Below are positions 1 through 15,829 of a stretch of 64,000 nucleotides of DNA, piece by piece; the stretch's first letter is position 1; each line of letters opens with the position of its first letter. The translations under genes were made by a program, and so were the position numbers. Below the pieces are notes generated by a model that saw only the letters and a list, made by a program, of their open reading frames with translations, did not search any database and was not told the origin of the DNA. The stretch comes from Escherichia phage slur09: sequence record NC_028840.1; one strand, given 5' to 3'.

Positions 1-127
1 CCTATATCTAGGATCCGCCGTTAAAAGAGCCAATGAACTTCGTTTACAATTGCACGGTGAAAATGCTGTTATAGAAACTTTTGATTCTACAAAATCTTTA
101 CCAACTTTAGAGGAACTTAATAAATGA
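1..127 (+). CDS. HNH/AP2-type homing endonuclease, 3' end only (5' end lies outside the window)
   Basis: Frame open from window edge to TGA at 125-127; translation ...RANELRLQLHGENAVIETFDSTKSLPTLEELNK closely matches the C-termini of the HNH genes at 7031-7567 and 63556-64000. Confidence 0.6.
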   Translation, partial: LYLGSAVKRANELRLQLHGENAVIETFDSTKSLPTLEELNK

Positions 128-876: not shown

Positions 877-888
877 TCAAGGATCGCT

Positions 889-1488
889 ATGACTAATAAA
901 AAAGAAGAAAAGACTAACCTGTTTCACTCCATTCGCCAATCTAATGAGTATACCTTTTTCTTTGATGAAGAATTAGGTCCGCCAGATGAATACCGTGATT
1001 TATCAATGGTACTTATGCAAGCAAATGAGGACGACGAAATTAATCTGATGATTAATGGCCCTGGTGGTTATGTTGATACTGCTGCACAGTTATCTAACTT
1101 AATTGCTAATTGCCGTGGAACAGTTATAGGACATCTGGTTGGTCCTAGTGCTTCTGCTTACTGCACAATTTTCCTATCCTGCCATGGATGGGTAGTACAT
1201 CCACATGCTACGCTAATGGGACACACGTTCTCCGGCGGATTCTGTGAGAAGGGTCAAGAAATCAAGAAAGCCTATGAATCTTACAATAAGTTCGTAGAAG
1301 ATATGATGCTAGATGTCTACTATCCGTTCTTCTCAATAGACGAAATCGACGAGATGGTAAAAGACAACAAAAATATCTATCTAGATAGCAAAGAAATCCA
1401 TAAGCGTATTGAAATCTTGGCAAAATATCGATCTGAGCAATATAATAAAGCCCAGTTACCTCAATCCGAGGAGCATAACGAAGAGTAA
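889..1488 (+). CDS. ClpP-like serine protease (S14-like fold)
   Basis: 199 aa; LMINGPGGYV...GPSASAY...LMGHTFSGG resembles ClpP INSPGG / active-site Ser / His contexts. Confidence 0.55.
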   Translation: MTNKKEEKTNLFHSIRQSNEYTFFFDEELGPPDEYRDLSMVLMQANEDDEINLMINGPGGYVDTAAQLSNLIANCRGTVIGHLVGPSASAYCTIFLSCHGWVVHPHATLMGHTFSGGFCEKGQEIKKAYESYNKFVEDMMLDVYYPFFSIDEIDEMVKDNKNIYLDSKEIHKRIEILAKYRSEQYNKAQLPQSEEHNEE

Positions 1489-1496
1489 GTAATTTT

Positions 1497-1530
1497 AAGC
1501 CAGGGTTTAACGACCCTGGCTTTTCTTTTA
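1497..1530 (+). terminator. rho-independent terminator after ClpP-like gene
   Basis: Hairpin AGCCAGGGT/ACCCTGGCT followed by TTTTCTTTT. Confidence 0.65.
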
Positions 1531-1592
1531 TCTAAAATTCTTCTTGACAACGATAAAATTTTATGCTCCAGAAGTGATCTTTAAAAACACAT

Positions 1593-1620
1593 TGTAATTT
1601 TCCTCCAAAATTAGTATAAT
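1593..1620 (+). promoter_or_regulatory. sigma70-type promoter upstream of putative holin
   Basis: TTGTAA-N16-TATAAT. Confidence 0.5.
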
Positions 1621-1644
1621 GGTAATGGTTAGAGGAGGTTACAA

Positions 1645-2301
1645 TTGGAAAAGTTCTTACAATTATTAACAGTACTGCTCCAAGAAGCGAAAGATCCAGC
1701 ATCGCTTCTTAAACGTCTGCTAACTATCTTAGTTGCTGTCATTATTTTCTTATTTGTTAGTAATACTAGCGAGGTGATGTCGTTCTTAAAGACTTTCTCC
1801 ACGTCTGCGGTTCTACAGGATGTTCAAACTCAAAGGATAGATAACTTTCCTAATGTAGCTAGAGAAAAGAGCATGGTTCTCTTTTCTCAAACGGGTGCAG
1901 ATGCTGTTTTTGTCGTCAAGTATAAACCCGATGCCATTAATGATTATTCTAACATTATTGCATGGGAAAGCAATGCGCAATTAGATAGGGCTGACTTGGC
2001 CGATAAAGCGGTAAATAAAACGTCTGAGCTATATAGACGTCACTTAGAGGGCTTTAACTACGCATCGGATTTAAGTGTAAAAGTAAATAAATACATGGGG
2101 TTAAATATACCTGCGTTTAAGAACGTTACTTTTAATTACATATACACTTGTCCGTATTTCAATCTAAACAATATCTATGCTGGATATATTGGTATTGCTT
2201 GGAAAGATAATCCTGTAGATGCGGCCGATTCTGAGAAATTTAACGAGTATTTAACAAAGCTCTGTTCTCCACAACAGAGATCTTTAGGTAGATCAATATG
2301 A
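1645..2301 (+). CDS. putative holin (TTG start)
   Basis: 218 aa; N-terminal hydrophobic helix LLTILVAVIIFLFV; RBS AGAGGAGG 6 nt upstream; stop overlaps endolysin start (ATGA). Confidence 0.5.
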   Translation: MEKFLQLLTVLLQEAKDPASLLKRLLTILVAVIIFLFVSNTSEVMSFLKTFSTSAVLQDVQTQRIDNFPNVAREKSMVLFSQTGADAVFVVKYKPDAINDYSNIIAWESNAQLDRADLADKAVNKTSELYRRHLEGFNYASDLSVKVNKYMGLNIPAFKNVTFNYIYTCPYFNLNNIYAGYIGIAWKDNPVDAADSEKFNEYLTKLCSPQQRSLGRSI

Positions 2302-2711
2302 GTTTTAAATTTGGTAAAAATAGCGAAAAACAATTAGCTACCGTTAAGCCAGAGCTACAAAAAGTAGCTCGTAGAGCTTTAGAATTATCTCCATATGATT
2401 TCACGATCGTACAGGGTATTCGTACAGTAGCACAAAGTGCCCAGAATATTGCTAATGGTACTTCATTTTTAAAAGATCCTAGTAAAAGCAAGCATATTAC
2501 TGGGGATGCCCTTGATTTTGCTCCATACATTAATGGCAAAATTGATTGGAATGACTTAGAAGCATTTTGGGCAGTTAAAAAGGCTTTTGAACAAGCTGGT
2601 AAAGAACTAGGCATTAAACTTCGTTTTGGTGCTGATTGGAATGCTTCAGGAGATTATCACGACGAAATAAAACGTGGTACCTATGATGGCGGTCATGTCG
2701 AACTAGTTTAA
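2298..2711 (+). CDS. lys: endolysin, L-alanyl-D-glutamate peptidase (M15-like)
   Basis: 137 aa; HITGDALD ... DWN ... GGHVE zinc-binding pattern; same length as T5 endolysin. Confidence 0.85.
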   Translation: MSFKFGKNSEKQLATVKPELQKVARRALELSPYDFTIVQGIRTVAQSAQNIANGTSFLKDPSKSKHITGDALDFAPYINGKIDWNDLEAFWAVKKAFEQAGKELGIKLRFGADWNASGDYHDEIKRGTYDGGHVELV

Positions 2712-2720
2712 TTAATAACT

Positions 2721-2747
2721 GAGGCGGGAATATTCCCGCCTTTTTAG
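2721..2747 (+). terminator. rho-independent terminator after endolysin
   Basis: Perfect hairpin GGCGGGAATATTCCCGCC followed by TTTTT. Confidence 0.7.
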
Positions 2748-2788
2748 GCAAAGGGGGCTTTAATAATTTTTGAAGACAGGAGAAAGCC

Positions 2789-3205
2789 ATGTTTGCAGAA
2801 CTATTCACTATGATGCTGCTAGGTATCTGGAAAATAAGTCTAGTAGTATTCGTTTTAATGATAGTCTTTACTATCATTGCATTAACTACCCGAAATAGCT
2901 TATTAATAAAGGTTATTCACGGACTAGAGTATATAATTATGGGTTCATTCGGCGTTTGTAAATGCAATTGCCATAGAGATACGAAATATTGTTGGTTATG
3001 GATGGAACTAGAGAATCCTATATCCATAGCTTTGGCTGTTTCATTCGGCATGATTCTTATGGCCCTTACTCTAGCATTAATACCTTTGATGTTAGCTGGG
3101 GGAGTTACAGCGTATTTCACCCTTTTCTCCCCGATACTTATGTACTCAATTTACCCAATAACTATGTATCTAGTTAGGAAAAGATTTATACATGCAGTAG
3201 ATTAA
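2789..3205 (+). CDS. polytopic membrane protein, unknown function
   Basis: 138 aa with about four hydrophobic segments; RBS AGGAGAAAG upstream. Confidence 0.4.
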   Translation: MFAELFTMMLLGIWKISLVVFVLMIVFTIIALTTRNSLLIKVIHGLEYIIMGSFGVCKCNCHRDTKYCWLWMELENPISIALAVSFGMILMALTLALIPLMLAGGVTAYFTLFSPILMYSIYPITMYLVRKRFIHAVD

Positions 3206-3218
3206 GATAAAAAAGTAG

Positions 3219-3247
3219 TTGACTTTTAGCCCCAGTTATTATATAAT
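3219..3247 (+). promoter_or_regulatory. strong T5-type early promoter
   Basis: TTGACT-N17-TATAAT, A-rich upstream, ATAAATT motif downstream. Confidence 0.65.
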
Positions 3248-3280
3248 ATATACATAAATTAGTTAAGAGAGGTATATATT

Positions 3281-3712
3281 ATGTCTGATCGTTTCTATAC
3301 TCAAATGGCGGAACATTTTCGTATACCACATTACGAGCTAAACATTGCACTCCGTGATCATGACTCTCCTGAGTACAAAAAGCTCGAAAAGAAAGCGGAA
3401 AAATCTATTGATACAAAGGTAGGTGCATCTATGTCTAAGGGCAAAAAGTTAACTCGTCTTGATCTTAATAAAATTTTAACCGAACTTTTGGGTACTGATA
3501 TTGAAGGTGCTAAATTACCACTTCTTGTACTAGAGACTATGATTAAAAAGGTCAAAAATAAAGAATATAAGAAGGTAGAAGTCCCAGAAGGCAGATTGAA
3601 GGCTCCTTATCAGGAAGCATTAACCGAGTGTTTGGGTGTAAATCTTGATTTGAGCACCGCAACTGTAAAAACTATGAAAAACTTCTTAGAGGCCATTAAT
3701 AACTATGAGTAA
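3281..3712 (+). CDS. hypothetical protein
   Basis: 143 aa ORF downstream of promoter at 3219-3247 with RBS AAGAGAGG. Confidence 0.5.
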   Translation: MSDRFYTQMAEHFRIPHYELNIALRDHDSPEYKKLEKKAEKSIDTKVGASMSKGKKLTRLDLNKILTELLGTDIEGAKLPLLVLETMIKKVKNKEYKKVEVPEGRLKAPYQEALTECLGVNLDLSTATVKTMKNFLEAINNYE

Positions 3713-3995
3713 ATTAGTATATCTATTGAAAGGTTCCACTTGCAATCCTTGCAAAATGTTTGAGCCAGTATTTGATAAAGTAGTCAGTGACTATAATTTG
3801 GAAATCCATAAAGAGACTGATAATACAGAATTAATGCAGAAATTTGGTGTGCGCCAAGTTCCTGTAGTAGTTCTGGCGGATCGCTTACCTAATGGTCGAG
3901 TAGAAGCTAATCATATTCTGATTGGACGTCAGCTTCGTAAAGAAACTATGCACGAAGCTATTAAAAATTTCCTGGATGATAATCCAGAGGACTAA
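3705..3995 (+). CDS. thioredoxin/glutaredoxin-like protein
   Basis: 96 aa; C-x-x-C motif CNPC in thioredoxin-like N-terminal context; start overlaps upstream stop. Confidence 0.5.
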   Translation: MSKLVYLLKGSTCNPCKMFEPVFDKVVSDYNLEIHKETDNTELMQKFGVRQVPVVVLADRLPNGRVEANHILIGRQLRKETMHEAIKNFLDDNPED

Positions 3996-4000
3996 TAAAC

Positions 4001-4034
4001 AAAGCCTGATCTTAGCTGATCAGGCTTTTATTTT
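4001..4034 (+). terminator. rho-independent terminator
   Basis: Hairpin AGCCTGATC/GATCAGGCT followed by TTTATTTT. Confidence 0.65.
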
Positions 4035-4036
4035 AC

Positions 4037-4065
4037 TTGCTTTTTGCTAAAAATTTTGGTATAAT
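4037..4065 (+). promoter_or_regulatory. strong T5-type early promoter
   Basis: TTGCTT-N17-TATAAT. Confidence 0.6.
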
Positions 4066-4092
4066 ATTTATATAGATTGATAGGAGGATTAA

Positions 4093-4338
4093 ATGTTAGC
4101 AGAGCAAGCAAAACGTTTAGCTAGAGTTAATAGAGCTGCTCTTCTCAAGAGCCGAAAGAAAACGTATAGATGGGTTAAGCGGAGGATAGTATCTTCTGTC
4201 GAGATTGGAGGTTCTTTTGTACAGCTTAATCGTGACGAAATTAGTTATGAAGCTATAAAAGCCCTCAATAAAGAGGGTTATACTCTCAAACTATCAAATA
4301 ATTATGGTACAACTATTTTAAATGTTATTTGGGAATAA
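4093..4338 (+). CDS. hypothetical protein
   Basis: 81 aa basic ORF with RBS TAGGAGGA upstream. Confidence 0.45.
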   Translation: MLAEQAKRLARVNRAALLKSRKKTYRWVKRRIVSSVEIGGSFVQLNRDEISYEAIKALNKEGYTLKLSNNYGTTILNVIWE

Positions 4339-4340
4339 TT

Positions 4341-5204
4341 ATGAAAAAAGAATTTAATGTGCATAAAACACTAGTAGTACCTGATGATGTTAACTTATTC
4401 TTTGTTGGGGATATTCATGGATGCAACGATTTACTAGAAGATGCACTACAATTAGCTGGCTATAACGGCAAGAAAGACTGCGTTGTATGCGTAGGGGATT
4501 TAATTGATCGAGGCACGCAGAACCTACAAGTTTTAGCCAAATTCCTGTATAATCCACGCTTTATCAGTGTCCGTGGTAATCATGACCAATTTATGATTGT
4601 GGGAGATTGGGCTAACTGGATGTATAACGGTGGTATGTGGGCCATGAATGAACTAGATGCAGATACCATTAAAAATATTGCTGAAGACATGGCTGAAAAA
4701 ATGCCAGTATTTCTGACTGTATTGCATCGTGGTAAAAAGTATGGTGTTGTTCATGGTGGTGTACCTTTTACGTACAAAGAATGCGGTAACGAAGTAGAAA
4801 CCCCAGTATGGGATAGCCTTATTGCACAAGTAGAAACAGCTAAGGAAGACCCACATGACCATCCTGGATACCATGTTGAGCCATACTTATGGGATCGAGA
4901 TGTAATCCAAGAAATAGGTTTTCACTTAGCTAAAAATGGTGAAGAACACTCACATTTCCAGCGTTATGCAGGGTTTAAAGAGAAATACATGGTAGAAGTA
5001 CCTCCGGTTAATGGAGTAGACTTTGTATTTCATGGGCATACCGGAGTACCTTACCCGATTTTATACCAGAACCGTGTTTACCTAGATACTGGCGGTGTTT
5101 TCAACGGGCAGTTGACGGTTGCGCAGGTTAACGATGAAACTGGCAAAATCACCACATTTACCACAGACAAAAATGATAGCTGCGGTGTACAGAGGATCCT
5201 TTAA
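4341..5204 (+). CDS. Ser/Thr protein phosphatase (calcineurin-like metallophosphoesterase)
   Basis: GDIHGC, GDLIDRG, GNHD, HGG, GHTG phosphoesterase motifs; start taken at ATG 4341 (MKKEF) rather than track start 4329. Confidence 0.75.
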   Translation: MKKEFNVHKTLVVPDDVNLFFVGDIHGCNDLLEDALQLAGYNGKKDCVVCVGDLIDRGTQNLQVLAKFLYNPRFISVRGNHDQFMIVGDWANWMYNGGMWAMNELDADTIKNIAEDMAEKMPVFLTVLHRGKKYGVVHGGVPFTYKECGNEVETPVWDSLIAQVETAKEDPHDHPGYHVEPYLWDRDVIQEIGFHLAKNGEEHSHFQRYAGFKEKYMVEVPPVNGVDFVFHGHTGVPYPILYQNRVYLDTGGVFNGQLTVAQVNDETGKITTFTTDKNDSCGVQRIL

Positions 5205-5491
5205 TGAATGATAGAATGAAAGAAGTACAAGAAGAATTACGAGCAATGCGTATTGATGCCCTTCGTTGGAGGGCATTAGTTAATGCTTTCGTCAAAGGAG
5301 ATACCGGAGTAATATATTCTGGAATAGCAGTCAATTTTTGTTTTAATTCTCCTGCTGAAATAGAGATAGAAACAAGGCTTACTACCTACCTTAATGAGGT
5401 AGACCTTAAGGGAGGAGAGACTCCCGAGGAGTTTAAAACTAGAGTATTAACTACCTGGGTTGATAATTTAATACAAAAAAGGAGTAAGTGA
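5204..5491 (+). CDS. hypothetical protein
   Basis: 95 aa ORF, start overlaps upstream stop. Confidence 0.45.
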   Translation: MNDRMKEVQEELRAMRIDALRWRALVNAFVKGDTGVIYSGIAVNFCFNSPAEIEIETRLTTYLNEVDLKGGETPEEFKTRVLTTWVDNLIQKRSK

Positions 5492-6081
5492 TGAAGGTTA
5501 AATTCTGGTCGGACTTGCACTTAGACCACCCTGGAGCACTACGTTTCCGTCCGTGGTTTAAGAACATGAAAGAGCACGATGAGTATATTCTAGATACTTT
5601 GTCCAAGCATATTGGTAAACGAACAAAACTTATTTTGCTAGGAGATATTGCAGTAGGTCGTGAAGGCCTGGCCAAATTAAAGTCGGTTATCCACAATGTC
5701 CCTAATCAACTCATTATGGGTAATCATGATGCGGAGCGTCAAGGGCTGAGTATTAGGGACTTAGCGGAAGTTTATGACGATATTCAAGCTCTAGGCAAAC
5801 AGACTGGAGGTGGCAAAAAGTTTTGGCTATCTCACTGCCCTTTGCATCCCAATGAACTTCGTGGCAAACTAAATATTCACGGACATGTACATACTACTTC
5901 CCTACGTGATCCACGTTATATTAATGTCTCATTTGAAATGAGTAAAACTCCAATTCCGCTAGAGGATATTGTGTCTGGTAAGTTTACTAGTTATGATAGA
6001 GTAGTTAATTGTACTACCGGCGAAGTATTACAAATAGGGGAAGATGTAGCTGCTGTATTACGTGGCGATATAAATGTCTAA
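5491..6081 (+). CDS. metallophosphoesterase
   Basis: DLHLD, GD, GNHD, GHVH motifs; RBS AAAAGGAG 6 nt upstream of ATG 5491. Confidence 0.65.
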   Translation: MKVKFWSDLHLDHPGALRFRPWFKNMKEHDEYILDTLSKHIGKRTKLILLGDIAVGREGLAKLKSVIHNVPNQLIMGNHDAERQGLSIRDLAEVYDDIQALGKQTGGGKKFWLSHCPLHPNELRGKLNIHGHVHTTSLRDPRYINVSFEMSKTPIPLEDIVSGKFTSYDRVVNCTTGEVLQIGEDVAAVLRGDINV

Positions 6082-6188
6082 GTATATAGCCGAGGCTATT
6101 ATTAAACGAATCATACAAGCGATAGCAATACTTATAATCATTTGTATTACTATTGGCACAGGATTAGGCATTTTAACTAAAAGTTTTA

Positions 6189-6218
6189 TTTGCTAAAATG
6201 CTTAAGTTTCTGTATAAT
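6189..6218 (+). promoter_or_regulatory. strong T5-type early promoter
   Basis: TTGCTA-N18-TATAAT followed by ATAAATT and RBS. Confidence 0.65.
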
Positions 6219-6248
6219 TACTTTATAAATTGATGAGAAGGAATCAAA

Positions 6249-6680
6249 ATGAACAAAGTTGATAAAGCTCTAGTTTTCGCAGCAGCAGATAAGTTTGAAC
6301 AAGTTAAGGCAACTTTCCGAACCTTGTTCCAGTCTTACGTTCAGGATAAGTCTAATCCTATTTCTGAACGCTTGATGGTTTGGGAGTGTCATGCTTGCAA
6401 TGCCCTGCTAATTGCTGATTACCGTAGTGATATAGATAAAGATCTTTGTGAAATCCTTATCCCCAAGGAAGCAGAACGTTATCAGTTAATCTCTTTCCAA
6501 GATTTGGCGGAGCATATCATTCCTGATGATCTTTGGGATAAATACTATGGGGATCCTGAAGATGAAGGAATGACTCCAGAAGCCTGTATTGAGCTGATCT
6601 GCAAAGATCATCCTGAAATTGCGGAGAAATTTGAAAAAGTTTTTGCTTCTGAGTTCTCCGGCGTTGTTAACGATTGGTAA
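6249..6680 (+). CDS. hypothetical acidic protein
   Basis: 143 aa ORF behind promoter 6189-6218. Confidence 0.5.
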   Translation: MNKVDKALVFAAADKFEQVKATFRTLFQSYVQDKSNPISERLMVWECHACNALLIADYRSDIDKDLCEILIPKEAERYQLISFQDLAEHIIPDDLWDKYYGDPEDEGMTPEACIELICKDHPEIAEKFEKVFASEFSGVVNDW

Positions 6681-6697
6681 GTAATTAAAAAATTCAG

Positions 6698-6726
6698 TTG
6701 CTTTAAGCCTTAAAATTCTGTATAAT
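6698..6726 (+). promoter_or_regulatory. strong T5-type early promoter
   Basis: TTGCTT-N17-TATAAT followed by ATAAATT; near-identical architecture to 6189-6218. Confidence 0.65.
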
Positions 6727-6758
6727 AAGTTCATAAATTAATGAGAGAGGAAATTCTA

Positions 6759-7037
6759 ATGGAAAACATGACTAAAGATTTCGACGCCTCTAACCTTACT
6801 AAGACTGAAATGGCCAATGTATTAGCAATTCTCCTCGACATGCAAGGATTTGAGGGGCAACTGATGAAAATGTCTATTCCGGCGATGAAGAAGATGTATG
6901 ATTCTCTTAACAAGAACGCTATGGCCTTTAACTTAGCAAAACAAGAGGCACGCTTTGCTAAGGAGCATCAAGCAGTGGCAGAACGCCGAGCAGCTAGCTT
7001 TGAGCGTGAAGTCAAGCAATTAAAGAAAAAATGCTAA
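6759..7037 (+). CDS. hypothetical protein
   Basis: ORF behind promoter 6698-6726; start chosen at ATG 6759 behind GAGAGAGG (track start 6741). Confidence 0.45.
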   Translation: MENMTKDFDASNLTKTEMANVLAILLDMQGFEGQLMKMSIPAMKKMYDSLNKNAMAFNLAKQEARFAKEHQAVAERRAASFEREVKQLKKKC

Positions 7038-7567
7038 CACAAGAAAGATTAAAAGAGTTATTTGAATACCGCCCGGAAACGGGCGAGTTTATAAGGAAAG
7101 TCAGTAGAGGACGAGGTAAAGCAGGTAGTATTGCTGGTAGTCCTGATAAGGATGGTTATATATTTATTGGGATAAATAGAAAAAGATATGCAGCCCATAG
7201 ATTAGCCTTTTTGTACATGGAGGGGTATATTCCAAATCTAGTACACCACTTAAATAACATAAGAAAAGATAATAGATGGTGTAATTTAAAAGATTGTACG
7301 TCCCAAGAGAATAATCGTAGCAAAATCGCTCAATCTAATTAGGGGTACTTAGGAGTTACCTGGAAAAAAGATCGACAACAATGGAGAGTCCAGGCCAGAA
7401 GCGCCGAAAGCATTACAGTACACGGAGGCTACTTTAGGTACCTAGATTTAGAGTTGGCAGTTCAAAGAGCTAATGAACTACGTTTAGAACTACATGGGCC
7501 TAATGCTGTTATAGAAACTTTTGATCATACAAAACCCTTACCTACTTTAGAGGACTTAAATAAATGA
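7031..7567 (+). pseudogene. HNH/AP2 homing endonuclease interrupted by an in-frame TAG at 7340-7342
   Basis: HNH part (AHRLAFLY...HHLNNIRKDNRWCNL) ends at TAG; same frame continues GYLGVTWKKDRQQWRV...ELHGPNAVIETFDHT to TGA 7565-7567, colinear with the intact paralog at 63556-64000 where Ser occupies the TAG position. Confidence 0.55.
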
Positions 7568-7845
7568 TTACAGAAATTCTCATTGGATTGCTAGTGCTTA
7601 TGACACTAGTAGCGATTGGCGGAGTTATTGGGATTGTGAATGCACGAAAAAGCATGGAAAATATGCTTATTACTAATGATGGACTACACCACCGTTTGCT
7701 AGAGCAAGAGCAGGACATTGAATTAGCACAAAGACGCTCGGATATTCTTAAGGAAAAATTAAATAATATAGAAGCAATAGTTGGGAATAATAAATTACCT
7801 GCTAAAGTAATGCGTACACAGATAATCACGGAGATTAAAAAATGA
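7564..7845 (+). CDS. small membrane protein
   Basis: 93 aa, N-terminal TM helix then coiled-coil-like charged region. Confidence 0.45.
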   Translation: MITEILIGLLVLMTLVAIGGVIGIVNARKSMENMLITNDGLHHRLLEQEQDIELAQRRSDILKEKLNNIEAIVGNNKLPAKVMRTQIITEIKK

Positions 7846-8087
7846 TGATGTTTATTCTAGCGTTTTATTTGATTGTAGTTGGTGTACTGGTTACTAAGTA
7901 CCATACATGGGCACCAAAGAATATAGTTAAGGTAGCACTGTTTGTTATTCCAGTCCCGCTTATTATACTTTCTATGTTACTGGTGATGTTAATCGGTAAA
8001 ATAACAAAAACCGATATTAAACGTATTGCTGATGAATTGCAACAGTCTTGTGATATGGTAGAGGATATTCTTAAAGATGAAGCTTAA
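7842..8087 (+). CDS. small membrane protein
   Basis: 81 aa, two hydrophobic segments; ATGA overlap with upstream gene. Confidence 0.45.
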   Translation: MMMFILAFYLIVVGVLVTKYHTWAPKNIVKVALFVIPVPLIILSMLLVMLIGKITKTDIKRIADELQQSCDMVEDILKDEA

Positions 8088-8403
8088 TTTTAATGAATTA
8101 AATACCTTACATAAGATACTACAGTTTGTGAATAATAATATTAGCATTCCAGATGATACGCTAGAAGTTCTCATGTTAATCGAGAAAAAGGTAGGAATTG
8201 AAATTGAGGACTCCTGGAAACCGCTTTCTGTATTAACACCCCTTAATATGAAAGTGATAGTTAAAAATATCGATACTGGTGAAGAATGTAAGATGATTCG
8301 TAAAGAACTAGCTGATAGCTATTCACCAAAGTCTGTAGTAATGTACCATGATGATACCGCTAAGACTCTACAGACAGCTAATTACGTATGGCGTCTCCCA
8401 TGA
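8077..8403 (+). CDS. hypothetical protein
   Basis: 108 aa ORF. Confidence 0.45.
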   Translation: MKLNFNELNTLHKILQFVNNNISIPDDTLEVLMLIEKKVGIEIEDSWKPLSVLTPLNMKVIVKNIDTGEECKMIRKELADSYSPKSVVMYHDDTAKTLQTANYVWRLP

Positions 8404-8502
8404 TTGATTTAGTACCAATTACTGCGGGGCTAATAGCACTATTAGTGCTTGCAGTTTTTATTATTGTGGAGTAGGCCAAAGTAATAAGGAGACTTAAAAA
8501 CA

Positions 8503-8703
8503 ATGATAAAACGTCTTGTTTATCAGGCACCAAAGATTGTAACTGAGTATTTTGTATTACTGCCTCAGATTGTATTTCTAACAGCATTATTTAATACACT
8601 TTTTCGACATCTAGGAATAACGGAAAATATCTTCTACACTTCTGGGTTACTTCCTTTTATGTACGAAGGCATCATCGTGGCAATCAACGGAGTTCGTAAA
8701 TGA
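8503..8703 (+). CDS. hypothetical protein
   Basis: 66 aa ORF with RBS AAGGAGA upstream. Confidence 0.35.
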   Translation: MIKRLVYQAPKIVTEYFVLLPQIVFLTALFNTLFRHLGITENIFYTSGLLPFMYEGIIVAINGVRK

Positions 8704-9161
8704 CAGCACTACAACAACTACAGAATTACTGGTTTGATAACCAATTTAACGATCTTTTCATCCAGTTGTTTGTCGAAACGAACGGACGCTTCAACTACCG
8801 ATTCTTTAACAAGTTTCACGAAACAAAATTCTCGCATACAGAAATTAATGCAGCGATCCAAGACCTAACTGGTTCTAAAGTAGTTCAATATCGTGAAGTA
8901 GACTTTACACCAGATTGTTTCGGGTTTGAATTGTTTAAGAAAGCATATAAATTTGGTAAGTTTGAGGATGCTCGTCAATGGGTTCATGATTTCTGGTACA
9001 ACACTGATATTGTTCCTAGTCGTGTACTGATTCTTAACTGGATTGCCAAACAACATCCGCCTAAAGCTCAATCGTCCTTCTTACCAACTGATACAGGAAA
9101 CCTCTACCATGACAGAAAAGAAAAATCCATTATTGGAGCAGATGAAGGAGTGGGAGAGTAA
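8700..9161 (+). CDS. hypothetical protein
   Basis: 153 aa ORF, start overlaps upstream stop. Confidence 0.5.
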   Translation: MTALQQLQNYWFDNQFNDLFIQLFVETNGRFNYRFFNKFHETKFSHTEINAAIQDLTGSKVVQYREVDFTPDCFGFELFKKAYKFGKFEDARQWVHDFWYNTDIVPSRVLILNWIAKQHPPKAQSSFLPTDTGNLYHDRKEKSIIGADEGVGE

Positions 9162-9480
9162 TATTGAAACTGGTCTAATAGACGGTGAAGATATTGTCAA
9201 CTCCATGCTAGAAGTAACAGTAGATAACATTAATCCTATTTTGGCTGGAGAAACCTCAGATCTTATAGGACTCTCTAGCACATTTGATTCTTTGGCTAAA
9301 TTAGCTTTAGACGATGAAGAGATAACCAAAGAAGATCTCGCTACAGCTATGAATATGGCTATTAATGCTTACATCGGTAAACGTACTGATGAACTTGGTA
9401 AACAGATCAATAAGCGTGATGCTACGCTAGGTCTTATGGAAACGGCCACTATGTTAAGAAGTGGTAAACAACTTCATTAA
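9142..9480 (+). CDS. hypothetical acidic protein (start uncertain)
   Basis: Track ORF 9043-9480; ATG 9142 has GGAG 5 nt upstream; alternative ATG at 9109. Confidence 0.4.
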   Translation: MKEWESNIETGLIDGEDIVNSMLEVTVDNINPILAGETSDLIGLSSTFDSLAKLALDDEEITKEDLATAMNMAINAYIGKRTDELGKQINKRDATLGLMETATMLRSGKQLH

Positions 9481-9486
9481 TTTTAG

Positions 9487-9517
9487 GAGGCCAGGACTTA
9501 GTTGTTCTGGCCTTTTG
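9487..9517 (+). terminator. rho-independent terminator
   Basis: Hairpin GGCCAG/CTGGCC followed by TTTT. Confidence 0.5.
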
Positions 9518-9540
9518 AGTACATATAAAAGGAGACTATA

Positions 9541-9774
9541 GTGGAAATTGTATTAATTATTCTTGCAATAGCACTATTATTTGCAATCAGCATATCTATT
9601 AAAAAGACTCGTGATCTTAATAGGACTATAGATGATAACAGAAAACTACGTGGTGAAAAGGCTAGGCTTAACCTACAGCATGAAGCTCTGAAGTTATTTG
9701 TAGTTCAGGGCAATAGAAACCATACTCCTGAAGATTTTATTAAACAGCTTAAAAAGCACTTAGGGCTCAAATAA
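9541..9774 (+). CDS. small membrane protein (GTG start)
   Basis: 77 aa, N-terminal TM helix; RBS AAAAGGAG upstream. Confidence 0.4.
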   Translation: MEIVLIILAIALLFAISISIKKTRDLNRTIDDNRKLRGEKARLNLQHEALKLFVVQGNRNHTPEDFIKQLKKHLGLK

Positions 9775-9959
9775 TGGAAACTCTTTTTCTTTTAATGCTC
9801 GTAGGTTCTCTGTTACTAATACTAGCACTTCTACTAATCTGCAACATTCTTAACAACAAGAATCTAGAGTTAAAGTGCGAAAACCAAATCCTTAATCGTG
9901 AACTTAAACAATATAATCTAGCAGCACATAAACTGTTAGACAAACTGGAGAATAAATAA
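9774..9959 (+). CDS. small membrane protein
   Basis: 61 aa, N-terminal TM helix plus coiled coil. Confidence 0.4.
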   Translation: METLFLLMLVGSLLLILALLLICNILNNKNLELKCENQILNRELKQYNLAAHKLLDKLENK

Positions 9960-10570
9960 TGTTTACACAACAACCTATTCAAGTAGTACCAGACCATGAA
10001 CTGAACACATGGGATTATAGCTTTAAAGATTTAACTGCTACTATACAATTCAAATCTATGAAGCTAACATTTGCACACACTGACCTTAGAGCATGTAAAG
10101 ATCTTGAAGGTAAGCTCGAAGATGCTCGTAAGATTTTTGGCACGGCTCGCATCCCGGCTGATAACCTGATTAATGCACTGATCGATGCAGGATACAAACT
10201 AGTGAAGGCTGAGGTTAACCGTCCTAGTACTCCTGTAACTATTAGAGATCCGTGGCAGTCAGGGACAATCTCAATGCTGAGTAACTCCGATAAAAGGTTA
10301 ATGTCGGATATGCACAATGTTCCTTGTGGGGGTGTGGTAAGTAGTACGAAGTCATATAAGTTTGGGGAAGATTACGGCCCTTCTGTACAGTTGAAACATA
10401 CTCAAGAAGCTTTTGAATCTGATATGCGAAGCGTAGCACCTGCGGATGCTGAAGGTTTTAAAAGTCCCCTCTATGTTACTCACTTTAATAATCTTAGACC
10501 TGGGAGTATAAGTGATACTATCCTTGAAGCGTTGGGAGCTGCTATTAATGAAGATAAGAGGGGTAATTAA
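9959..10570 (+). CDS. hypothetical protein
   Basis: 203 aa ORF, RBS GGAGAA. Confidence 0.5.
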   Translation: MFTQQPIQVVPDHELNTWDYSFKDLTATIQFKSMKLTFAHTDLRACKDLEGKLEDARKIFGTARIPADNLINALIDAGYKLVKAEVNRPSTPVTIRDPWQSGTISMLSNSDKRLMSDMHNVPCGGVVSSTKSYKFGEDYGPSVQLKHTQEAFESDMRSVAPADAEGFKSPLYVTHFNNLRPGSISDTILEALGAAINEDKRGN

Positions 10571-11295
10571 TGAGTATAAAAAAGAATTTAGCAGAGATTA
10601 TTAAATTAGCTAGAGCTTGTAATGGGAAATGTGTTTCTCAGCTTAATGAGTTAGAGGCACATGCAGTGGCATTTTGTGCAGAGTTCTATCCTGCATACAT
10701 TAATGCTAGTGGACAACCTAAATATAATAAAGATGCAGAAGAAGTTACGTTAGCTCCTTCTTATATTAGTATACGTCGTCTGATTCAAACTGTTGATCCG
10801 ACTATTAAAGGATTTTCAGCAGATTCATTCCATGTCTTTGCTGATAAAGAACTCCCACATTTTAAAGAAGGAAGTGCAAAGACAGCCCTAGAATGTTATC
10901 CTAAGATTTTGATGATTCCACCTAAGCAATGTAAATACGATCATCTTCCTAGACTTACAAAGAAAGTAGAACCACCTTATTCTTCTCTATCTGAATTAAA
11001 GCTAGGAATTGTATCGACACTTGCGCAGGTTCATCTAAGTATAGTTGACGACTCAACAACATCTAATCCTATTCTAGATGCTGCACACTTTGAAATTTTA
11101 CGTGATCCTGAACAAGCTAGAAAAGTTGCAAAGTCTGTTAAGTTTGATATAGCAACAATTCTTGACACTAAACAAGAAACTAGACCTAGAGGAAGTGTAG
11201 ATTATTCTGCGCTAAACTCCGAGTCATCTTACTTAGCAACATTCCTTTTCATGGCGTCAAAAGGAGTTATTCTAAAGGTTAATAAAGATGGATGA
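10570..11295 (+). CDS. hypothetical protein
   Basis: 241 aa ORF. Confidence 0.5.
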   Translation: MSIKKNLAEIIKLARACNGKCVSQLNELEAHAVAFCAEFYPAYINASGQPKYNKDAEEVTLAPSYISIRRLIQTVDPTIKGFSADSFHVFADKELPHFKEGSAKTALECYPKILMIPPKQCKYDHLPRLTKKVEPPYSSLSELKLGIVSTLAQVHLSIVDDSTTSNPILDAAHFEILRDPEQARKVAKSVKFDIATILDTKQETRPRGSVDYSALNSESSYLATFLFMASKGVILKVNKDG

Positions 11296-12016
11296 TTTAC
11301 GTGCTGAAATTAATAAAAAGCTACGCGAGGAAGCCAGGAGGTTTCCTCTTAAAAACTTTTTGAAGTCAAATGGCTCTACTAATATAACGAAGATTAGGCA
11401 ACTTCACCCTGACTTCCAACAAGAGGCCTTAAACCTTATCTTTATTAGGAAAGCTTTAAAAGTCCAGAAAGAAGAGTATGGGTATGAAAGAGTTAATTAT
11501 AAGACAGCCAATCAGTTAGTAGAGATATGGTGCTATAAGCATAAAGGATACTTTATGCAAACTGCTAGATCTCACCTAGATGGGCACGGTTGTTTACAAT
11601 GTGCTAGAGAAAGCAACCTCAATACACCTATCGAGAAACCGGAAGTAGAAGAAGATGTTCAATTTCCCACATATCTCTATATCTTCTCTAATAAAGATCA
11701 GTCTAGGAAGAAATTAAAGACAAAGATTGGGGTTTCTAGAGAGCCACATCAAAGGTTTAAGAATCTAGAGTATGATAAATTGCGTGTGCCGGGTTTTGAA
11801 GATATGGAAGTATTTGGTATCTACCAGTACAAGAAAGGATCGAAAGAACTTGCTTACAAAATAGAACACCAAGCACATAAATTTTTCGAGAATAAATTTG
11901 CTAATCATTATAAATTCGATGGAGCAAAAGAGATATTCAATATTAAAGCTGTAGAGGCAGAAAAATATCTATTAAGTCAAGGTTGCATAAAAATTTACCC
12001 AACTCCAAACTCATGA
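11288..12016 (+). CDS. T5orf172-like / GIY-YIG-like domain protein with Cys/His cluster
   Basis: 242 aa; CYKHKG...HGCLQCARE cysteine cluster followed by YLYIF...KIGVSREPHQRFKN, which resembles GIY-YIG-like cores. Confidence 0.4.
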   Translation: MDDLRAEINKKLREEARRFPLKNFLKSNGSTNITKIRQLHPDFQQEALNLIFIRKALKVQKEEYGYERVNYKTANQLVEIWCYKHKGYFMQTARSHLDGHGCLQCARESNLNTPIEKPEVEEDVQFPTYLYIFSNKDQSRKKLKTKIGVSREPHQRFKNLEYDKLRVPGFEDMEVFGIYQYKKGSKELAYKIEHQAHKFFENKFANHYKFDGAKEIFNIKAVEAEKYLLSQGCIKIYPTPNS

Positions 12017-12043
12017 CGAAAATTTAAAAGTAACGAAATTTGC

Positions 12044-12073
12044 TTGACATTCGTGAGAATAATGTGTTATAAT
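12044..12073 (+). promoter_or_regulatory. near-consensus sigma70 promoter firing into coding-free repeat region
   Basis: TTGACA-N18-TATAAT immediately after stop of 11288-12016; no ORF with RBS downstream for about 1.7 kb. Confidence 0.55.
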
Positions 12074-12516
12074 AATCTCATAGATTAAAAACATCAACTT
12101 GTTTTTACCTCTAGGCCGTAGATTTACATCATTCCTCGTAGGAAAACACTTGATGACGGTTCTGCTCGCAGGTTCTCGTCAATTGTTCTTCCACACCGAG
12201 ACTTAGGAGGATGTATCAAATCGCACGCGCCTAGAGGGGCTAACTCTCATGAAATGGGGGTATATTTACTTTTAAATAACTAAAAATATTTAAAGGCAAT
12301 ATCTGTGTTCAAGATGATACACCTGTTGCCGCTCTTCTGCTAGGATGGCACAACACTTTTCTAGAAACTCCAGAGTTCTCACGAAATACTCACCCTTTCT
12401 AGGGCGGTTCTCCTAAGTTTCCAGGAACATATACTAGGCGGTTTAATACAGGGCGGTTATTGGGAGGGGGGTTATTTCTATAAGACATTTTTCCAAAACA
12501 CATTTCCAGAAATTAC

Positions 12517-13117
12517 TGTCGGATTTGCACACTGACATAAGTTTAAAAACTGGTCGGATTTGCACAATGACAGGAGTCTCCTAAGTTTTTAGGAACGCTG
12601 AAAATGGCAGCATTATTTCGGGCCGAAGGCCCATGATTGCCTGAGTTTTTAGAGCCACAGAAATTTTCACTTGTCAAGCTATTTTGCCCCATTTAGCTAA
12701 TAAAATTTTACTTTTTCTGCACTTATCTCAAATTAACCCAAATCTTCTCAACTCTTCTCCAAAATCCCCGCAAATCAGGTGCTCCGCACCAAACATGCGC
12801 CCCTCTCGCAGTTCCCCCAAGTTTCTCTCGATCTCTCATCCTCTCCTCAAACCCATACAATCACACACCCTCCAATCGAAGTCACAAAAATCTTGTCGGA
12901 TTCGCACATCTTAATCCTAGAAAAACCGTGTCGGATTTGCACATATCCCACAGGATTCGAACGCAGTTCGTGATTGCTGGAGTTTTTAGGAAAATTCATT
13001 GTCGGATTCGCACACTATAAAAATTTTTCGGGTCGGATTTGCACACTACCAAAAATTGTCGGATTTGCACATACACGCCCACGCGTAATCCAGGGGGGCA
13101 AATGTCGGTTTTGCACA
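12517..13117 (+). repeat. eight direct copies of 15-mer (T/G)GTCGGATT(T/C)GCACA
   Basis: Copies start at 12517, 12552, 12894, 12929, 13000, 13031, 13057, 13103, all same orientation, in loose pairs; region also holds TCCTAA-N4-TTAGGA palindromic motifs at about 12410 and 12580. Confidence 0.85.
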
Positions 13118-13120
13118 AAA

Positions 13121-13142
13121 GCGCAGGGCAATTGCCCTGCGC
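13121..13142. repeat. perfect 22-bp palindrome GCGCAGGGCAATTGCCCTGCGC
   Basis: Read directly; sits right after the last 15-mer copy. Confidence 0.9.
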
Positions 13143-13149
13143 TAAATAC

Positions 13150-13335
13150 GAATGATAATAAGAATCATTCTCATTTAAAAAGCGGAATGAGAATGATAAT
13201 AATTCGCATTTAGAAAGTGAAATGAGAATTATTCAGGAAGTGAAACGATTCTCATTTAAAAAGTGAAATGATTATTAGTTAGATAGTGAAATGCGAATGA
13301 TACTGATTTGCATTCAAGAATGGAAGTGAGAAACA
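13150..13335 (+). repeat. short degenerate tandem repeats of type AGTGAAATGAGAAT
   Basis: About six units (gcggaatgagaatga, agtgaaatgagaatt, agtgaaacgattctc, agtgaaatgattatt, agtgaaatgcgaatg, ggaagtgagaaacac) read by eye. Confidence 0.6.
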
Positions 13336-13347
13336 CTGTTATTTAAG

Positions 13348-13430
13348 TTATCCACAGACTTATTAACAGCACGATTTGACTTGACAGAATCCTAGCCATT
13401 TTGAGGCGTTATTAACAGACTTATCCACAG
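13348..13430 (+). promoter_or_regulatory. two exact DnaA-box 9-mers TTATCCACA
   Basis: 13348-13356 and 13422-13430. Confidence 0.5.
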
Positions 13431-13438
13431 CTTATCCT

Positions 13439-13458
13439 ACTGTATAAATATACAGTAT
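13439..13458. promoter_or_regulatory. LexA-box-like palindrome TACTGTATAAATATACAGTA
   Basis: CTGT-N8-ACAG with AT-only spacer and TA flanks; one spacer difference from my recalled SOS-box consensus TACTGTATATATATACAGTA. Confidence 0.45.
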
Positions 13459-13822
13459 TCCTACGCAGTGAATAATTCTAATATAGCGTTAAAACGTCCT
13501 AGATCGCATTCTAACGCGTTTAATTTTGGTGGGGATACTAAAACACGGGCAAAATTGGAGGAGGCTTGAAAATTAGTTAGCACGCTAACGATCACACAAG
13601 GCGACACGTAACACCCTAACCATTAGCAGGCTAACCATCGCGGGCGCGGTCAAATGAGAATGATTCTCATTTGAGAATTGGGGCACTTCCTGATAGTTGC
13701 GCCCCGTGATTATTATAGTAGTGGGCAACCGTTACGCTTTGCCCACTCCCGCCACTCATCTTGATGCCTAGACTTGCGACGGCGTACTAAAAACCGCTTG
13801 TACCAGTGATTAAACCATCGTT

Positions 13823-15270: not shown

Positions 15271-15765
15271 TTAAACTACCTGTAAGGATTCAATATTGAA
15301 ACATCGTTTCAATTCGTCATGCAAAACAGCGTATTCATCCCATCGGGTACTATCAGGAATATAAACAAGCTGCTTTAACCGGTTTGCATATATTACCGCT
15401 TTGTTATCAATTATCTCGACGCCACCATGTTTAATAATTAATTTTATGACGGAATTAATAGGATCGCCGCCGTTTACATATGTGCCGGATTTACTTAACT
15501 GATAATGATAAAGGCTTGCATATACGTTTTCATTTTCATACCATTCGCCCGATTCCTCGTCCTCATAACCGTCACTACCAAAACGAGAAGCGTTATCAAT
15601 AGCCATTTCATGAGCGAAAGCGTCCAGATCACAACCAGCGGGAACAAAGTGTTCCTCCGTCCAACCTTCTCCGCAATAACCAGTATGACAATCGACCAAA
15701 ATGATCATATCATGTTTTGCCGTGCTCACTTCTCCCAGTGAGAAGCCATATTTTTCTTCTGGCAT
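15271..15765 (-). CDS. strongly acidic protein, unknown function (anti-restriction candidate, inferred)
   Basis: 164 aa from ATG 15765 behind AGGAGG; about 29 Asp/Glu versus 12 Lys/Arg by hand count. Confidence 0.5.
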   Translation of the reverse strand: MPEEKYGFSLGEVSTAKHDMIILVDCHTGYCGEGWTEEHFVPAGCDLDAFAHEMAIDNASRFGSDGYEDEESGEWYENENVYASLYHYQLSKSGTYVNGGDPINSVIKLIIKHGGVEIIDNKAVIYANRLKQLVYIPDSTRWDEYAVLHDELKRCFNIESLQVV

Positions 15766-15829
15766 AATTAGCCTCCTATTAATTAACAAGGGAATAGTAA
15801 AGCGGGGTAATAATCCCCGCTTAGTATTA

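What the first reader, a model, noticed from the sequence alone, without database searches (positions are those of the whole stretch)
11288..12016. T5orf172-like / GIY-YIG-like protein as last gene before the repeat region
The Cys/His cluster plus GIY-YIG-like core suggests a DNA-binding or nicking protein. Its position directly beside the repeat array raises the possibility that it acts on that region. The domain call is from memory of motifs and needs confirmation.
Basis: inference. Interest (0 to 1): 0.35.

Follow-up and report, generated by a model that had tools for sequence, protein, structure and literature searches.

The report
Zinc-finger T5orf172 homing-type endonuclease gene
This is a real gene of a T5-like phage that encodes a zinc-finger DNA-binding module fused to a T5orf172 (GIY-YIG-type) nuclease domain, and it behaves like an optional, horizontally spreading homing-endonuclease cassette, an ordinary kind of phage gene with no detectable tie to the neighbouring repeat array.

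Summary
Window 11288-12016 (+) is a 242-aa ORF with a CHCC zinc cluster and a T5orf172 domain that scores above Pfam's cut-off (27.4 bits against 20).

The window is a T5-like phage (Demerecviridae), reversed relative to T5. The ORF is the last gene of the unique early region, about 680 bp from the terminal-repeat boundary. The "repeat region" is T5's known Repeat Region 3, which holds the injection stop signal (iss). It has 9-10 copies of GTCGGATTTGCACA plus DnaA boxes.

The array is the same in phages that carry the gene, lack it, or carry a different gene in the slot. T5 itself lacks the gene and still has the array and its major nick. The proposed functional link is therefore not supported.

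The gene looks like a free-standing homing-type endonuclease cassette:
- It is present in only 33 of roughly 540 T5-like records.
- It is a clean presence/absence polymorphism between a conserved upstream gene and a conserved promoter.
- Other phages carry T5orf172-only genes in the same slot.
- It is a DNA identity island, with dS about half that of its neighbour and dN/dS 0.04-0.08.

Its N-terminal half is a paralogue (63% identity) of the near-universal T5.023, so it is either a chimera or the full-length relative of a truncated family. It is a new member of a known kind (T5orf172 homing endonucleases, Barth et al. 2023). Interest is low to moderate.

The parts
11288..12016 (+). ORF242: zinc-finger + T5orf172 endonuclease-like gene (the finding)
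   Evidence: ORF. Pfam T5orf172 and MUG113 above cut-off. PHROG endonuclease families. 100% identical to a phage BB1 protein; the homologues in SE11 and S124 are annotated 'endonuclease'. dN/dS 0.04-0.08.
11288..11440 (+). N-terminal helical segment (aa 1-51), shared only with the T5.023 family
   Evidence: 63% identity to T5.023 over aa 4-106. AF2 pLDDT 69-89, helices at 2-18, 33-37 and 41-60. A match to the zinc-finger repeat HMM is not significant (2.9 bits), so reading it as a degenerate repeat is only a hint.
11441..11605 (+). Single DUF723/DUF4379 (CapR-like) treble-clef zinc-finger repeat, aa 52-106; ligands C82, H85, C102, C105; presumed DNA-binding module
   Evidence: Custom repeat HMM 60 bits. 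14,947 library representatives match, mostly through this unit, many with 5-14 tandem copies. Invariant columns. pLDDT 94-96. Zinc-finger DNA-binding domains of T5orf172 homing endonucleases are described in PMC10448857.
11666..12001 (+). T5orf172 (GIY-YIG superfamily) nuclease-like domain, aa 127-238; Y131, K146-I-G148, R156, E193, E215 conserved
   Evidence: Secondary-structure order is beta-beta-alpha-beta-alpha. The top five PDB fold matches are all the Slx1 GIY-YIG domain (prob 0.84-0.96, but E 0.1-0.4). 42% and 37% identical to the stand-alone T5orf172 proteins that occupy the same slot in CRW-SP6 and S113.
11290..12064 (.). Presence/absence segment (cassette): replaced by 43 bp in saus132 and by a 398-bp T5orf172-only gene segment in CRW-SP6
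   Evidence: Pairwise blastn coordinates; junction sequences.
11170..12127 (.). Identity island against Epseptimavirus carriers (87-98% in most 60-bp windows, against 50-83% just outside); the putative transferred or co-converted tract
   Evidence: Sliding-window identity; segment identities.
10570..11295 (+). Upstream gene ORF241 (PHROG 8993, function unknown); left flank of the slot, its stop overlaps the ORF242 start
   Evidence: 109 phage records hold it at >=80% aa identity, of which only 33 carry ORF242.
12044..12073 (+). Consensus sigma-70 promoter (TTGACA-N18-TATAAT with TG) that forms the right flank of the slot
   Evidence: 12 of 12 hexamer matches. Both hexamers are conserved in DaisyDussoix, HMD-P3, saus132, CRW-SP6 and S113 whatever the slot holds.
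12500..13700 (.). Neighbouring repeat array = T5 Repeat Region 3 / injection stop signal, with the terminal-repeat boundary at about 12.7 kb. This is context, not part of the gene's system.
   Evidence: Repeats. Mapping to T5 9321-10608. T5 annotation (TR end 10219, iss 9140-10149, nick 9748). The EscoHU1 LTR boundary lies 683 bp after the gene's stop. DnaA boxes TTATCCACA are visible at 13348 and 13422. Literature.

Best explanation
ORF242 is a free-standing homing-type endonuclease gene of the T5orf172 branch of the GIY-YIG superfamily, sitting in a T5-like phage.

Proposed mechanism:
1. The single treble-clef zinc finger, with the N-terminal helical segment it shares with T5.023, binds a specific DNA sequence.
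2. The C-terminal T5orf172 domain cuts or nicks nearby DNA, using the conserved Arg156 and Glu215.
3. In mixed infections the enzyme cuts genomes of related phages that lack the cassette, somewhere near the ORF241/promoter junction.
4. Recombinational repair from the carrier genome copies the cassette plus short flanks (about 11.2-12.13 kb) into the cut genome.

The gene is transcribed as the last gene of the early operon and is probably translationally coupled to ORF241.

Shown: domain architecture, conserved catalytic-type residues, purifying selection, a polymorphic slot, the identity island, and younger divergence than the flank.

Inferred: nuclease activity, the target site, and homing itself.
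For: - Domains: T5orf172 above the Pfam cut-off; endonuclease and homing-endonuclease PHROGs; zinc-finger repeat at 60 bits. The zinc-finger(s)+T5orf172 architecture recurs in many database proteins, including a gene wedged between the portal and head-assembly genes of Salmonella phage seszw.
- Catalytic-type residues Y131, K146, G148, R156 and E215 are invariant in the family alignment and in all 7 orthologues. The equivalent Glu is required for cleavage by the T5orf172 nuclease Odn (PMC8263062).
- Fold: beta-beta-alpha-beta-alpha order; the best PDB matches are all the Slx1 GIY-YIG domain; BFVD matches include T5orf172, GIY-YIG, 'Hef-like homing endonuclease' and CapR-homology proteins at E down to 1e-10.
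- Sporadic distribution: 33 records at >=90% identity, against about 532 records holding the neighbouring T5.026 and 109 holding this ORF241 allele.
- Clean indel with fixed boundaries; the slot is empty or holds T5orf172-only genes in other phages. That type is annotated 'putative homing endonuclease P-TflXVII' in DT571/2.
- Carriers fall in both Tequintavirus and Epseptimavirus. Identity over ORF242 is 90-93%, against 78-81% for ORF241 and 77-84% downstream. dS is 0.47-0.49 against 0.96-1.08 for ORF241 in the same phage pairs.
- Literature: T5orf172 homing endonucleases are abundant in T5-like phages, mostly carry DUF723/CapR-type zinc-finger DNA-binding domains, and mark boundaries of genetic exchange (PMC10448857). 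Homing nucleases are the main source of differences among T5-like genomes (PMC10644984).
Against: - No nuclease assay or mixed-infection data exist for this protein or any close homologue.
- The structural matches to GIY-YIG nucleases are not formally significant (E 0.1-0.4), and the nuclease-domain model has only moderate confidence (pLDDT 79).
- No decayed copy was found. The one apparent split copy, in HMD-P3, is an Illumina-adapter assembly artefact.
- dN/dS of 0.04-0.08 is as low as for a useful gene.
- Canonical phage GIY-YIG homing endonucleases have the nuclease at the N-terminus, whereas here it is C-terminal. This does match other T5orf172 homing endonucleases.
- The identity island could come from ordinary recombination combined with strong selection.
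Confidence: 0.6

Rival explanations
1. One reading: the protein binds or nicks the adjacent repeat array (iss / terminal-repeat boundary) and takes part in two-step injection, terminal-repeat formation or the site-specific nicks of T5-like DNA.
For: Physical adjacency: the gene ends about 500 bp before the first GTCGGATTTGCACA copies and about 680 bp before the terminal-repeat boundary. A T5orf172 nuclease that targets iterated repeats exists (Odn cleaves the PLE origin iterons; PMC8263062).
Against: The array has the same copy number and consensus in carriers, empty-slot phages, phages with a different slot gene, and T5. T5 lacks the gene but has the iss and the major nick inside the array. 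Only 33 of about 540 T5-like records carry the gene, while the array is reported in all T5-like phages. An optional gene cannot supply an essential cis-site function.
Confidence: 0.07
2. Domesticated or chimeric nuclease. The N-terminal T5.023-like module gives the protein the DNA specificity, or the whole function, of the near-universal T5.023 protein. ORF242 can then replace T5.023 and/or direct a nuclease to T5.023-binding sites, for example in competing phages, in the way Odn borrowed RepA specificity.
For: The N-terminal 106 aa are 63% identical to T5.023. The window and 7 distinct phages (BB1, SE11, SE8, NG_A1, KS_S14, PH204, SP3) share a deletion of T5.022-024, and all of them carry ORF242. 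EscoHU1, also a carrier, lost T5.021-024 through a different deletion. T5.023 is otherwise near universal, with 525 records at >=80% coverage against 532 for its neighbour T5.026. dN/dS of 0.04-0.08 in both halves fits a useful gene.
Against: There are only two independent loss events, and I could not list T5-like phages that lack both genes. Most carriers keep T5.023. The function of T5.023 is unknown. The sporadic distribution and the identity island are what a selfish element gives.
Confidence: 0.2
3. Inactive relic: a decaying former endonuclease gene that is merely carried along.
For: Homing endonuclease genes commonly decay after fixation. The nuclease domain scores only modestly against Pfam (27 bits).
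Against: All 7 compared copies are intact and 729 bp long, with dN/dS of 0.04-0.08 in both halves and conserved catalytic-type residues. The only 'broken' copy is a sequencing-adapter artefact.
Confidence: 0.05

Closest known systems
T5orf172-family homing endonuclease genes of ICP1, T5-like and other phages (Barth, Dunham and Seed 2023, PMC10448857)
   Same: C-terminal T5orf172 domain preceded by DUF723/DUF4379/CapR-type zinc-finger DNA-binding module(s). Variable presence between close relatives. Located at a boundary where sequence identity between phages changes. T5-like phages are named there as a lineage rich in such genes.
   Different: It has one zinc-finger unit rather than several, plus an extra 51-aa N-terminal segment found only in the T5.023 family. 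No decayed alleles were seen. It lies next to the terminal-repeat boundary rather than next to terminase, RNR or capsid genes. No member from T5-like phages has been assayed, as far as the papers read here show.
'Putative homing endonuclease P-TflXVII' type: stand-alone T5orf172 proteins of 118-123 aa in the same slot (DT571/2, T5_ev219, S113, CRW-SP6)
   Same: Same genomic slot with the same left and right boundaries. The T5orf172 domain is 37-42% identical to aa 127-238 of ORF242.
   Different: These proteins have no zinc finger or N-terminal module at all. ORF242 carries about 125 additional N-terminal residues related to T5.023.
T5.023 (YP_006851, PHROG 4605), a conserved early protein of T5-like phages with unknown function
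   Same: 63% identity over the first 103-106 residues, including the CHCC zinc finger. The tail of the family (HIIWYNKDQ..K..GV in phiR2-01 g016) resembles the first beta-hairpin of the ORF242 T5orf172 domain (LYIFSNKDQ..K..IGV).
   Different: T5.023 is 148-172 aa, has no T5orf172 domain, lies about 2 kb upstream, and is near universal rather than sporadic. It looks like a truncated relative that keeps only the DNA-binding part, analogous to CapR.
Odn (ICP1 Gp88), a chimeric T5orf172 nuclease (PMC8263062)
   Same: T5orf172 nuclease domain with the conserved Arg and Glu, fused to a DNA-binding module that is homologous to another protein's DNA-binding domain.
   Different: Odn's module is RepA_N from a satellite, and its target (the PLE origin iterons) is known. 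The module in ORF242 is related to a protein of its own phage lineage, and no target is known.
Free-standing GIY-YIG homing endonucleases of T4 (SegA-G; e.g. SegB, PMC2330249)
   Same: An intergenic, optional, free-standing gene of the GIY-YIG superfamily, expected to cause preferential inheritance of itself and its flanks in mixed infection.
   Different: Seg proteins have a canonical N-terminal GIY-YIG domain (PF01541) and C-terminal DNA-binding domains. Here the domain order is reversed and the nuclease belongs to the T5orf172 subfamily (KIG in place of YIG).

Membership tests
T5orf172 domain family (Pfam PF10544, GIY-YIG clan) | Score above Pfam's gathering threshold over most of the profile | tested here: met
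   27.4 bits against a cut-off of 20, profile positions 2-95 of 101, aa 129-226. MUG113 from the same clan scores 22.9 against 22.3.
T5orf172 domain family (Pfam PF10544, GIY-YIG clan) | Conserved motif residues: Tyr of the first hairpin, K-I-G of the second strand, Arg in helix 1, C-terminal Glu | tested here: met
   Y131, K146, G148, R156 and E215 are invariant in alignment A2 with six distant homologues and in 7 orthologues.
GIY-YIG nuclease superfamily | beta-beta-alpha-beta-alpha core fold that superposes on solved GIY-YIG domains | tested here: inconclusive
   The AF2 domain model (pLDDT 78.9, pTM 0.78) has the expected order of elements. The top five PDB matches are all the Slx1 GIY-YIG domain (TMq 0.43-0.51, prob 0.84-0.96), but E is 0.1-0.4. 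A profile search of PDB sequences found nothing.
GIY-YIG nuclease superfamily | Metal-dependent DNA cleavage that depends on the conserved Arg and Glu | not testable with these tools
   Needs purified protein. It has been shown for another T5orf172 protein (Odn E180A; PMC8263062).
Free-standing homing endonuclease gene | Presence/absence polymorphism at a fixed site between conserved flanks in related genomes | tested here: met
   Window 11290-12064 is replaced by 43 bp in saus132 and by another gene in CRW-SP6 and S113, with the same boundaries. 33 carriers among 109 records that hold the same upstream allele.
Free-standing homing endonuclease gene | Evidence of horizontal spread: the gene is younger or more similar than its flanks across lineages | tested here: met
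   Identity island at 11.17-12.13 kb. dS is about half that of ORF241 in the same pairs. Carriers occur in two genera.
Free-standing homing endonuclease gene | Site-specific cleavage of the cassette-less allele and preferential inheritance in mixed infection | not testable with these tools
   Requires biochemistry and phage crosses.
DUF723/DUF4379 (CapR-like) treble-clef zinc-finger repeat | C-x2-H ... C-x2-C ligands within the conserved ~60-aa unit (FI.kA...H..kY.Y..v.Y......v.I.C..HG.F.Q....Hl.G.GC..C) | tested here: met
   Custom HMM built from 400 units: 60.2 bits, E 4e-20, aa 52-106. Precomputed PF05265 on the identical database protein. The current Pfam scan gave no hit for this single copy at E<=10, so the Pfam threshold itself is not met here.
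   The array is present and unchanged in phages without the gene, including T5.
Anti-phage defence systems (PADLOC) | Match to a defence-system protein model | tested here: not met
   No PADLOC hit at E<=0.1.

The most novel reading that the evidence does not exclude
ORF242 is the full-length, still active form of the ancestor of the T5.023 family, or a chimera that borrowed T5.023's DNA-binding module. On this reading T5.023, which is near universal in T5-like phages, is a domesticated CapR-like homing-endonuclease remnant with a cellular role. ORF242 both substitutes for it, which would explain why the only T5.023 deletions seen here lie in ORF242 carriers, and directs a nuclease to T5.023-binding sites in competing phages.
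Probability: 0.15. Interest if true: 0.5.

Novelty: new member of a known kind. Interest (0 to 1): 0.3.

Why it matters
Mostly as annotation. The result converts "hypothetical protein" in BB1, DaisyDussoix, EscoHU1 and others into a zinc-finger T5orf172 homing-type endonuclease. It also identifies the slot between ORF241 and a conserved promoter, about 0.7 kb outside the terminal repeat, as a cassette site that holds at least three states.

It removes a tempting but unsupported link between this gene and the T5 injection stop signal.

The paralogy with T5.023 gives a first functional handle on that conserved early gene: a homing-endonuclease-derived zinc-finger DNA-binding protein. It also gives a simple genetic test, namely whether T5.023 is dispensable only when ORF242 is present.

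Tried and rejected
- NCBIfam gave no hit for ORF242 or T5.023, and PADLOC gave none.
- A profile search of PDB sequences found nothing.
- Rfam on 11.9-14.0 kb gave only sub-threshold chance matches.
- I first read the split copy in HMD-P3 (two 'endonuclease' CDSs) as a decayed homing-endonuclease allele. I rejected this because the 110-bp insert is Illumina adapter sequence, so it is an assembly artefact.
- I tested whether aa 1-51 are a degenerate second zinc-finger repeat, as a MAFFT alignment with the seszw protein suggested. The repeat HMM gives only 2.9 bits, so this is unproven.
- T5.018 (the T5 gene at the equivalent position) is not related to ORF242 and only marginally related to ORF241.
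- The word-indexed protein search with the single sequence found only 4 relatives. The exhaustive search and the profile search were needed.
- I could not count T5-like phages that lack both T5.023 and ORF242. The tools return totals and at most 60 rows, so the association in the novel case rests on two loss events.
- A literature search for 'P-TflXVII' found nothing useful.

Full report
**1. What the window is**

Megablast of 10.5-14.0 kb hits 454 phage records, nearly all T5-like Demerecviridae. The best hits are KS_S14, BB1 and DaisyDussoix at 93-96%.

The annotated neighbours show the orientation is reversed relative to T5. Window 1-12016 holds the leftmost early genes of the unique region, from the phosphatase down to T5.019. 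Then comes a non-coding stretch, then the terminal repeat with T5.017 to T5.011, A2, A1 and dmp.

T5 annotates its left terminal repeat as 1-10219, the injection stop signal (iss) as 9140-10149, and a major single-strand interruption at 9748. Window 12308-13545 aligns to T5 10608-9321. In EscoHU1 the annotated LTR boundary lies 683 bp past the stop codon of the ORF's orthologue. The terminal-repeat boundary in the window is therefore near 12.7 kb.

It has nine or so GTCGGATTTGCACA repeats, palindromes, inverted repeats and DnaA boxes.

**2. The observation**

ORF 11288-12016 (+), 242 aa, is as described.
- Pfam gives T5orf172 at 27.4 bits (cut-off 20) over aa 129-226, and MUG113 just above its cut-off.
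- PHROGs give an N-terminal family of unknown function (4605, aa 1-144) and the endonuclease families 681 and 18411.
- The Cys/His cluster (C82, H85, C102, C105) is one unit of a very common ~60-aa zinc-finger repeat. An exhaustive HMMER search finds 14,947 representatives, most with 5-14 tandem units and some ending in T5orf172.
- An HMM I built from 400 such units matches aa 52-106 at 60 bits.
- The identical database protein carries precomputed PF10544 and PF05265 (DUF723).
- In an alignment with six distant zinc-finger+T5orf172 proteins, Y131, K146, G148, R156, E193 and E215 are invariant.

**3. Structure**

AF2 on a 22-sequence alignment gives a confident N-terminal half (pLDDT 85-96) and a weaker C-terminal half. 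The C-domain alone reaches pLDDT 78.9 and pTM 0.78, with the beta-beta-alpha-beta-alpha order.

Against the PDB, the top matches of both models are the GIY-YIG domain of Slx1, but E is 0.1-0.5. I count the fold test as suggestive only.

Against BFVD the matches are significant. They include proteins named T5orf172, GIY-YIG nuclease, Hef-like homing endonuclease, treble-clef zinc finger and CapR-homology proteins.

**4. Distribution and the slot**

Full-length close homologues (>=90% aa identity) occur in 33 phage records. The neighbouring T5.026 is in about 532 records. The upstream ORF241 allele (>=80% identity) is in 109.

Pairwise blastn shows a clean polymorphism:
- saus132 aligns up to window 11289 and again from 12065, with 43 bp in between.
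- CRW-SP6 has the same boundaries with a 398-bp segment that encodes a 123-aa protein.
- S113 has a 118-aa protein in the same place.

Both of those small proteins are stand-alone T5orf172 domains, 42% and 37% identical to aa 127-238 of ORF242. That type is annotated "putative homing endonuclease P-TflXVII" in DT571/2 and T5_ev219.

The right flank of the slot is a perfect sigma-70 promoter. Its hexamers are conserved in five other T5-like phages, whatever state the slot is in.

**5. Evolutionary signals**

Seven intact orthologues from Tequintavirus and Epseptimavirus phages give dN/dS of 0.04-0.08 in both halves. dS is about half that of ORF241 in the same phage pairs, for example 0.47 against 1.08 for window versus EscoHU1.

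DNA identity to the Epseptimavirus carriers is 90-93% over ORF242, 78-81% over ORF241 and 77-84% downstream. A 60-bp sliding window places the island at about 11.17-12.13 kb.

So the cassette has a younger common ancestor than its surroundings. This is what transfer between lineages produces.

The one apparently broken copy, in HMD-P3, contains Illumina adapter sequence and is an assembly artefact. I therefore have no example of decay.

**6. Relation to T5.023**

The first 106 residues are 63% identical to T5.023, and the DNA is about 70% identical. T5.023 is a 148-aa early protein found in 525 records at >=80% coverage. It has no T5orf172 domain.

In the phiR2-01 orthologue the similarity runs on to aa 149, across the first beta-hairpin of the nuclease domain: LYIFSNKDQSRKKLKTKIGV against HIIWYNKDQTIKQELKKDGV.

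The simplest reading is that T5.023 is a truncated relative that keeps only the DNA-binding part, comparable to CapR. ORF242 is then either the full-length form or a fusion of a T5.023-like module with the slot's resident T5orf172 gene. This is inference.

The window has no T5.023 at all. The same T5.022-024 deletion junction occurs in only 10 records (7 phages), all of them ORF242 carriers. EscoHU1, another carrier, lost T5.021-024 through a different deletion. Two events are too few to prove that ORF242 substitutes for T5.023, but that is the most novel reading left open.

**7. The proposed link to the repeat array**

Counting GTCGGATTTGCACA (up to 2 mismatches) gives 9-10 copies in six carriers, 10 in the empty-slot phage, 9-10 in the two phages with T5orf172-only genes, 10 in T5 and 8 in phiR2-01. 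All copies lie on the same strand and share the same consensus.

T5 has the iss and its nick without this gene. The literature describes the array as conserved in all T5-like phages, while the flanking coding regions vary.

An optional gene cannot be a required partner of that cis element. What remains possible is that the endonuclease's target in cassette-less phages lies somewhere in the adjacent non-coding DNA.

**8. Comparison with what is known**

Barth et al. 2023 (PMC10448857) describe this class:
- T5orf172 homing endonuclease genes are abundant in T5-like phages.
- 87% of them carry CapR/DUF723/DUF4397-type zinc-finger DNA-binding domains.
- The domains are modular and get exchanged.
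- The genes sit at boundaries of genetic exchange.

Barth et al. 2021 (PMC8263062) show that a T5orf172 domain cleaves DNA and needs the conserved Glu.

ORF242 is therefore a new, uncharacterised member of a known kind. Some GenBank records already call it "endonuclease".

**Verdict**

The repeat-array link is not supported. The best explanation is a homing-type zinc-finger T5orf172 endonuclease cassette (confidence 0.6). Interest is 0.3.

Noticed in passing
window 12044-12073 (+), and 12080-12265: A perfect sigma-70 promoter (TTGACA-N18-TATAAT with an extended -10 TG) lies directly after the ORF242 stop and points into the ~650-bp non-coding stretch before the terminal-repeat boundary. Both hexamers are conserved in five other T5-like phages while the spacer varies. 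A terminator-like hairpin at 12243-12261 would give an RNA of about 180 nt. There is no Rfam match and no convincing ORF.
   Followed up: partly
window ~9480-9541 (junction between the T5.025 and T5.021 homologues): The window lacks T5.022, T5.023 and T5.024. The identical deletion junction is found in only 10 phage records (BB1, SE11, SE8, NG_A1, KS_S14, PH204, SP3), all of which carry ORF242. EscoHU1, also a carrier, lost T5.021-024 through a different deletion. T5.023 is otherwise near universal.
   Followed up: partly
L002 (PQ462667.1, phage HMD-P3) locus 6373-6443, equivalent to window ~11850: The public HMD-P3 record has a ~110-bp insert inside the ORF242 homologue. The insert consists of Illumina adapter sequence (AGATCGGAAGAGCGTCGTGTAGGGAAAGAGTGT ... 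GTGTAGATCTCGGTGGTCGCCGTATCATT) plus a short duplication. This splits the gene into two annotated 'endonuclease' CDSs and is an assembly artefact, not a pseudogene.
   Followed up: yes
window 22922-23419 (-): A 165-aa ORF with an HNH_3 domain (E 7e-11) sits just beyond dmp, on the other side of the collapsed terminal repeat and next to the physical genome end. T5 has no such gene there. Both unique/terminal-repeat junctions of this phage therefore have a homing-type nuclease gene close by.
   Followed up: partly
window 15271-15789 (-): A 172-aa ORF (TTG start) lies inside the terminal repeat between the T5.012 and T5.011 (DUF7566) homologues, where T5 has only a terminator. It has no Pfam hit and was not examined further.
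   Followed up: no
window 22.75-24.5 kb: The terminal repeat (ending with dmp at 22014-22748) runs straight into the late region (pb5-like receptor-binding protein at 24520-26439, then the terminase subunits). The window therefore comes from an assembly with a single collapsed copy of the terminal repeat, and the true genome termini fall near 22.87 kb and 12.7 kb.
   Followed up: partly
window 13324-13516 versus L001 12623-12815 (window ~17.1-17.3 kb): A 190-bp stretch of the repeat region recurs inverted about 3.6 kb away inside the terminal repeat (72% identity). This corresponds to Davison's IRD'spacerIRC' / IRCspacerIRD pair with paired DnaA boxes.
   Followed up: no
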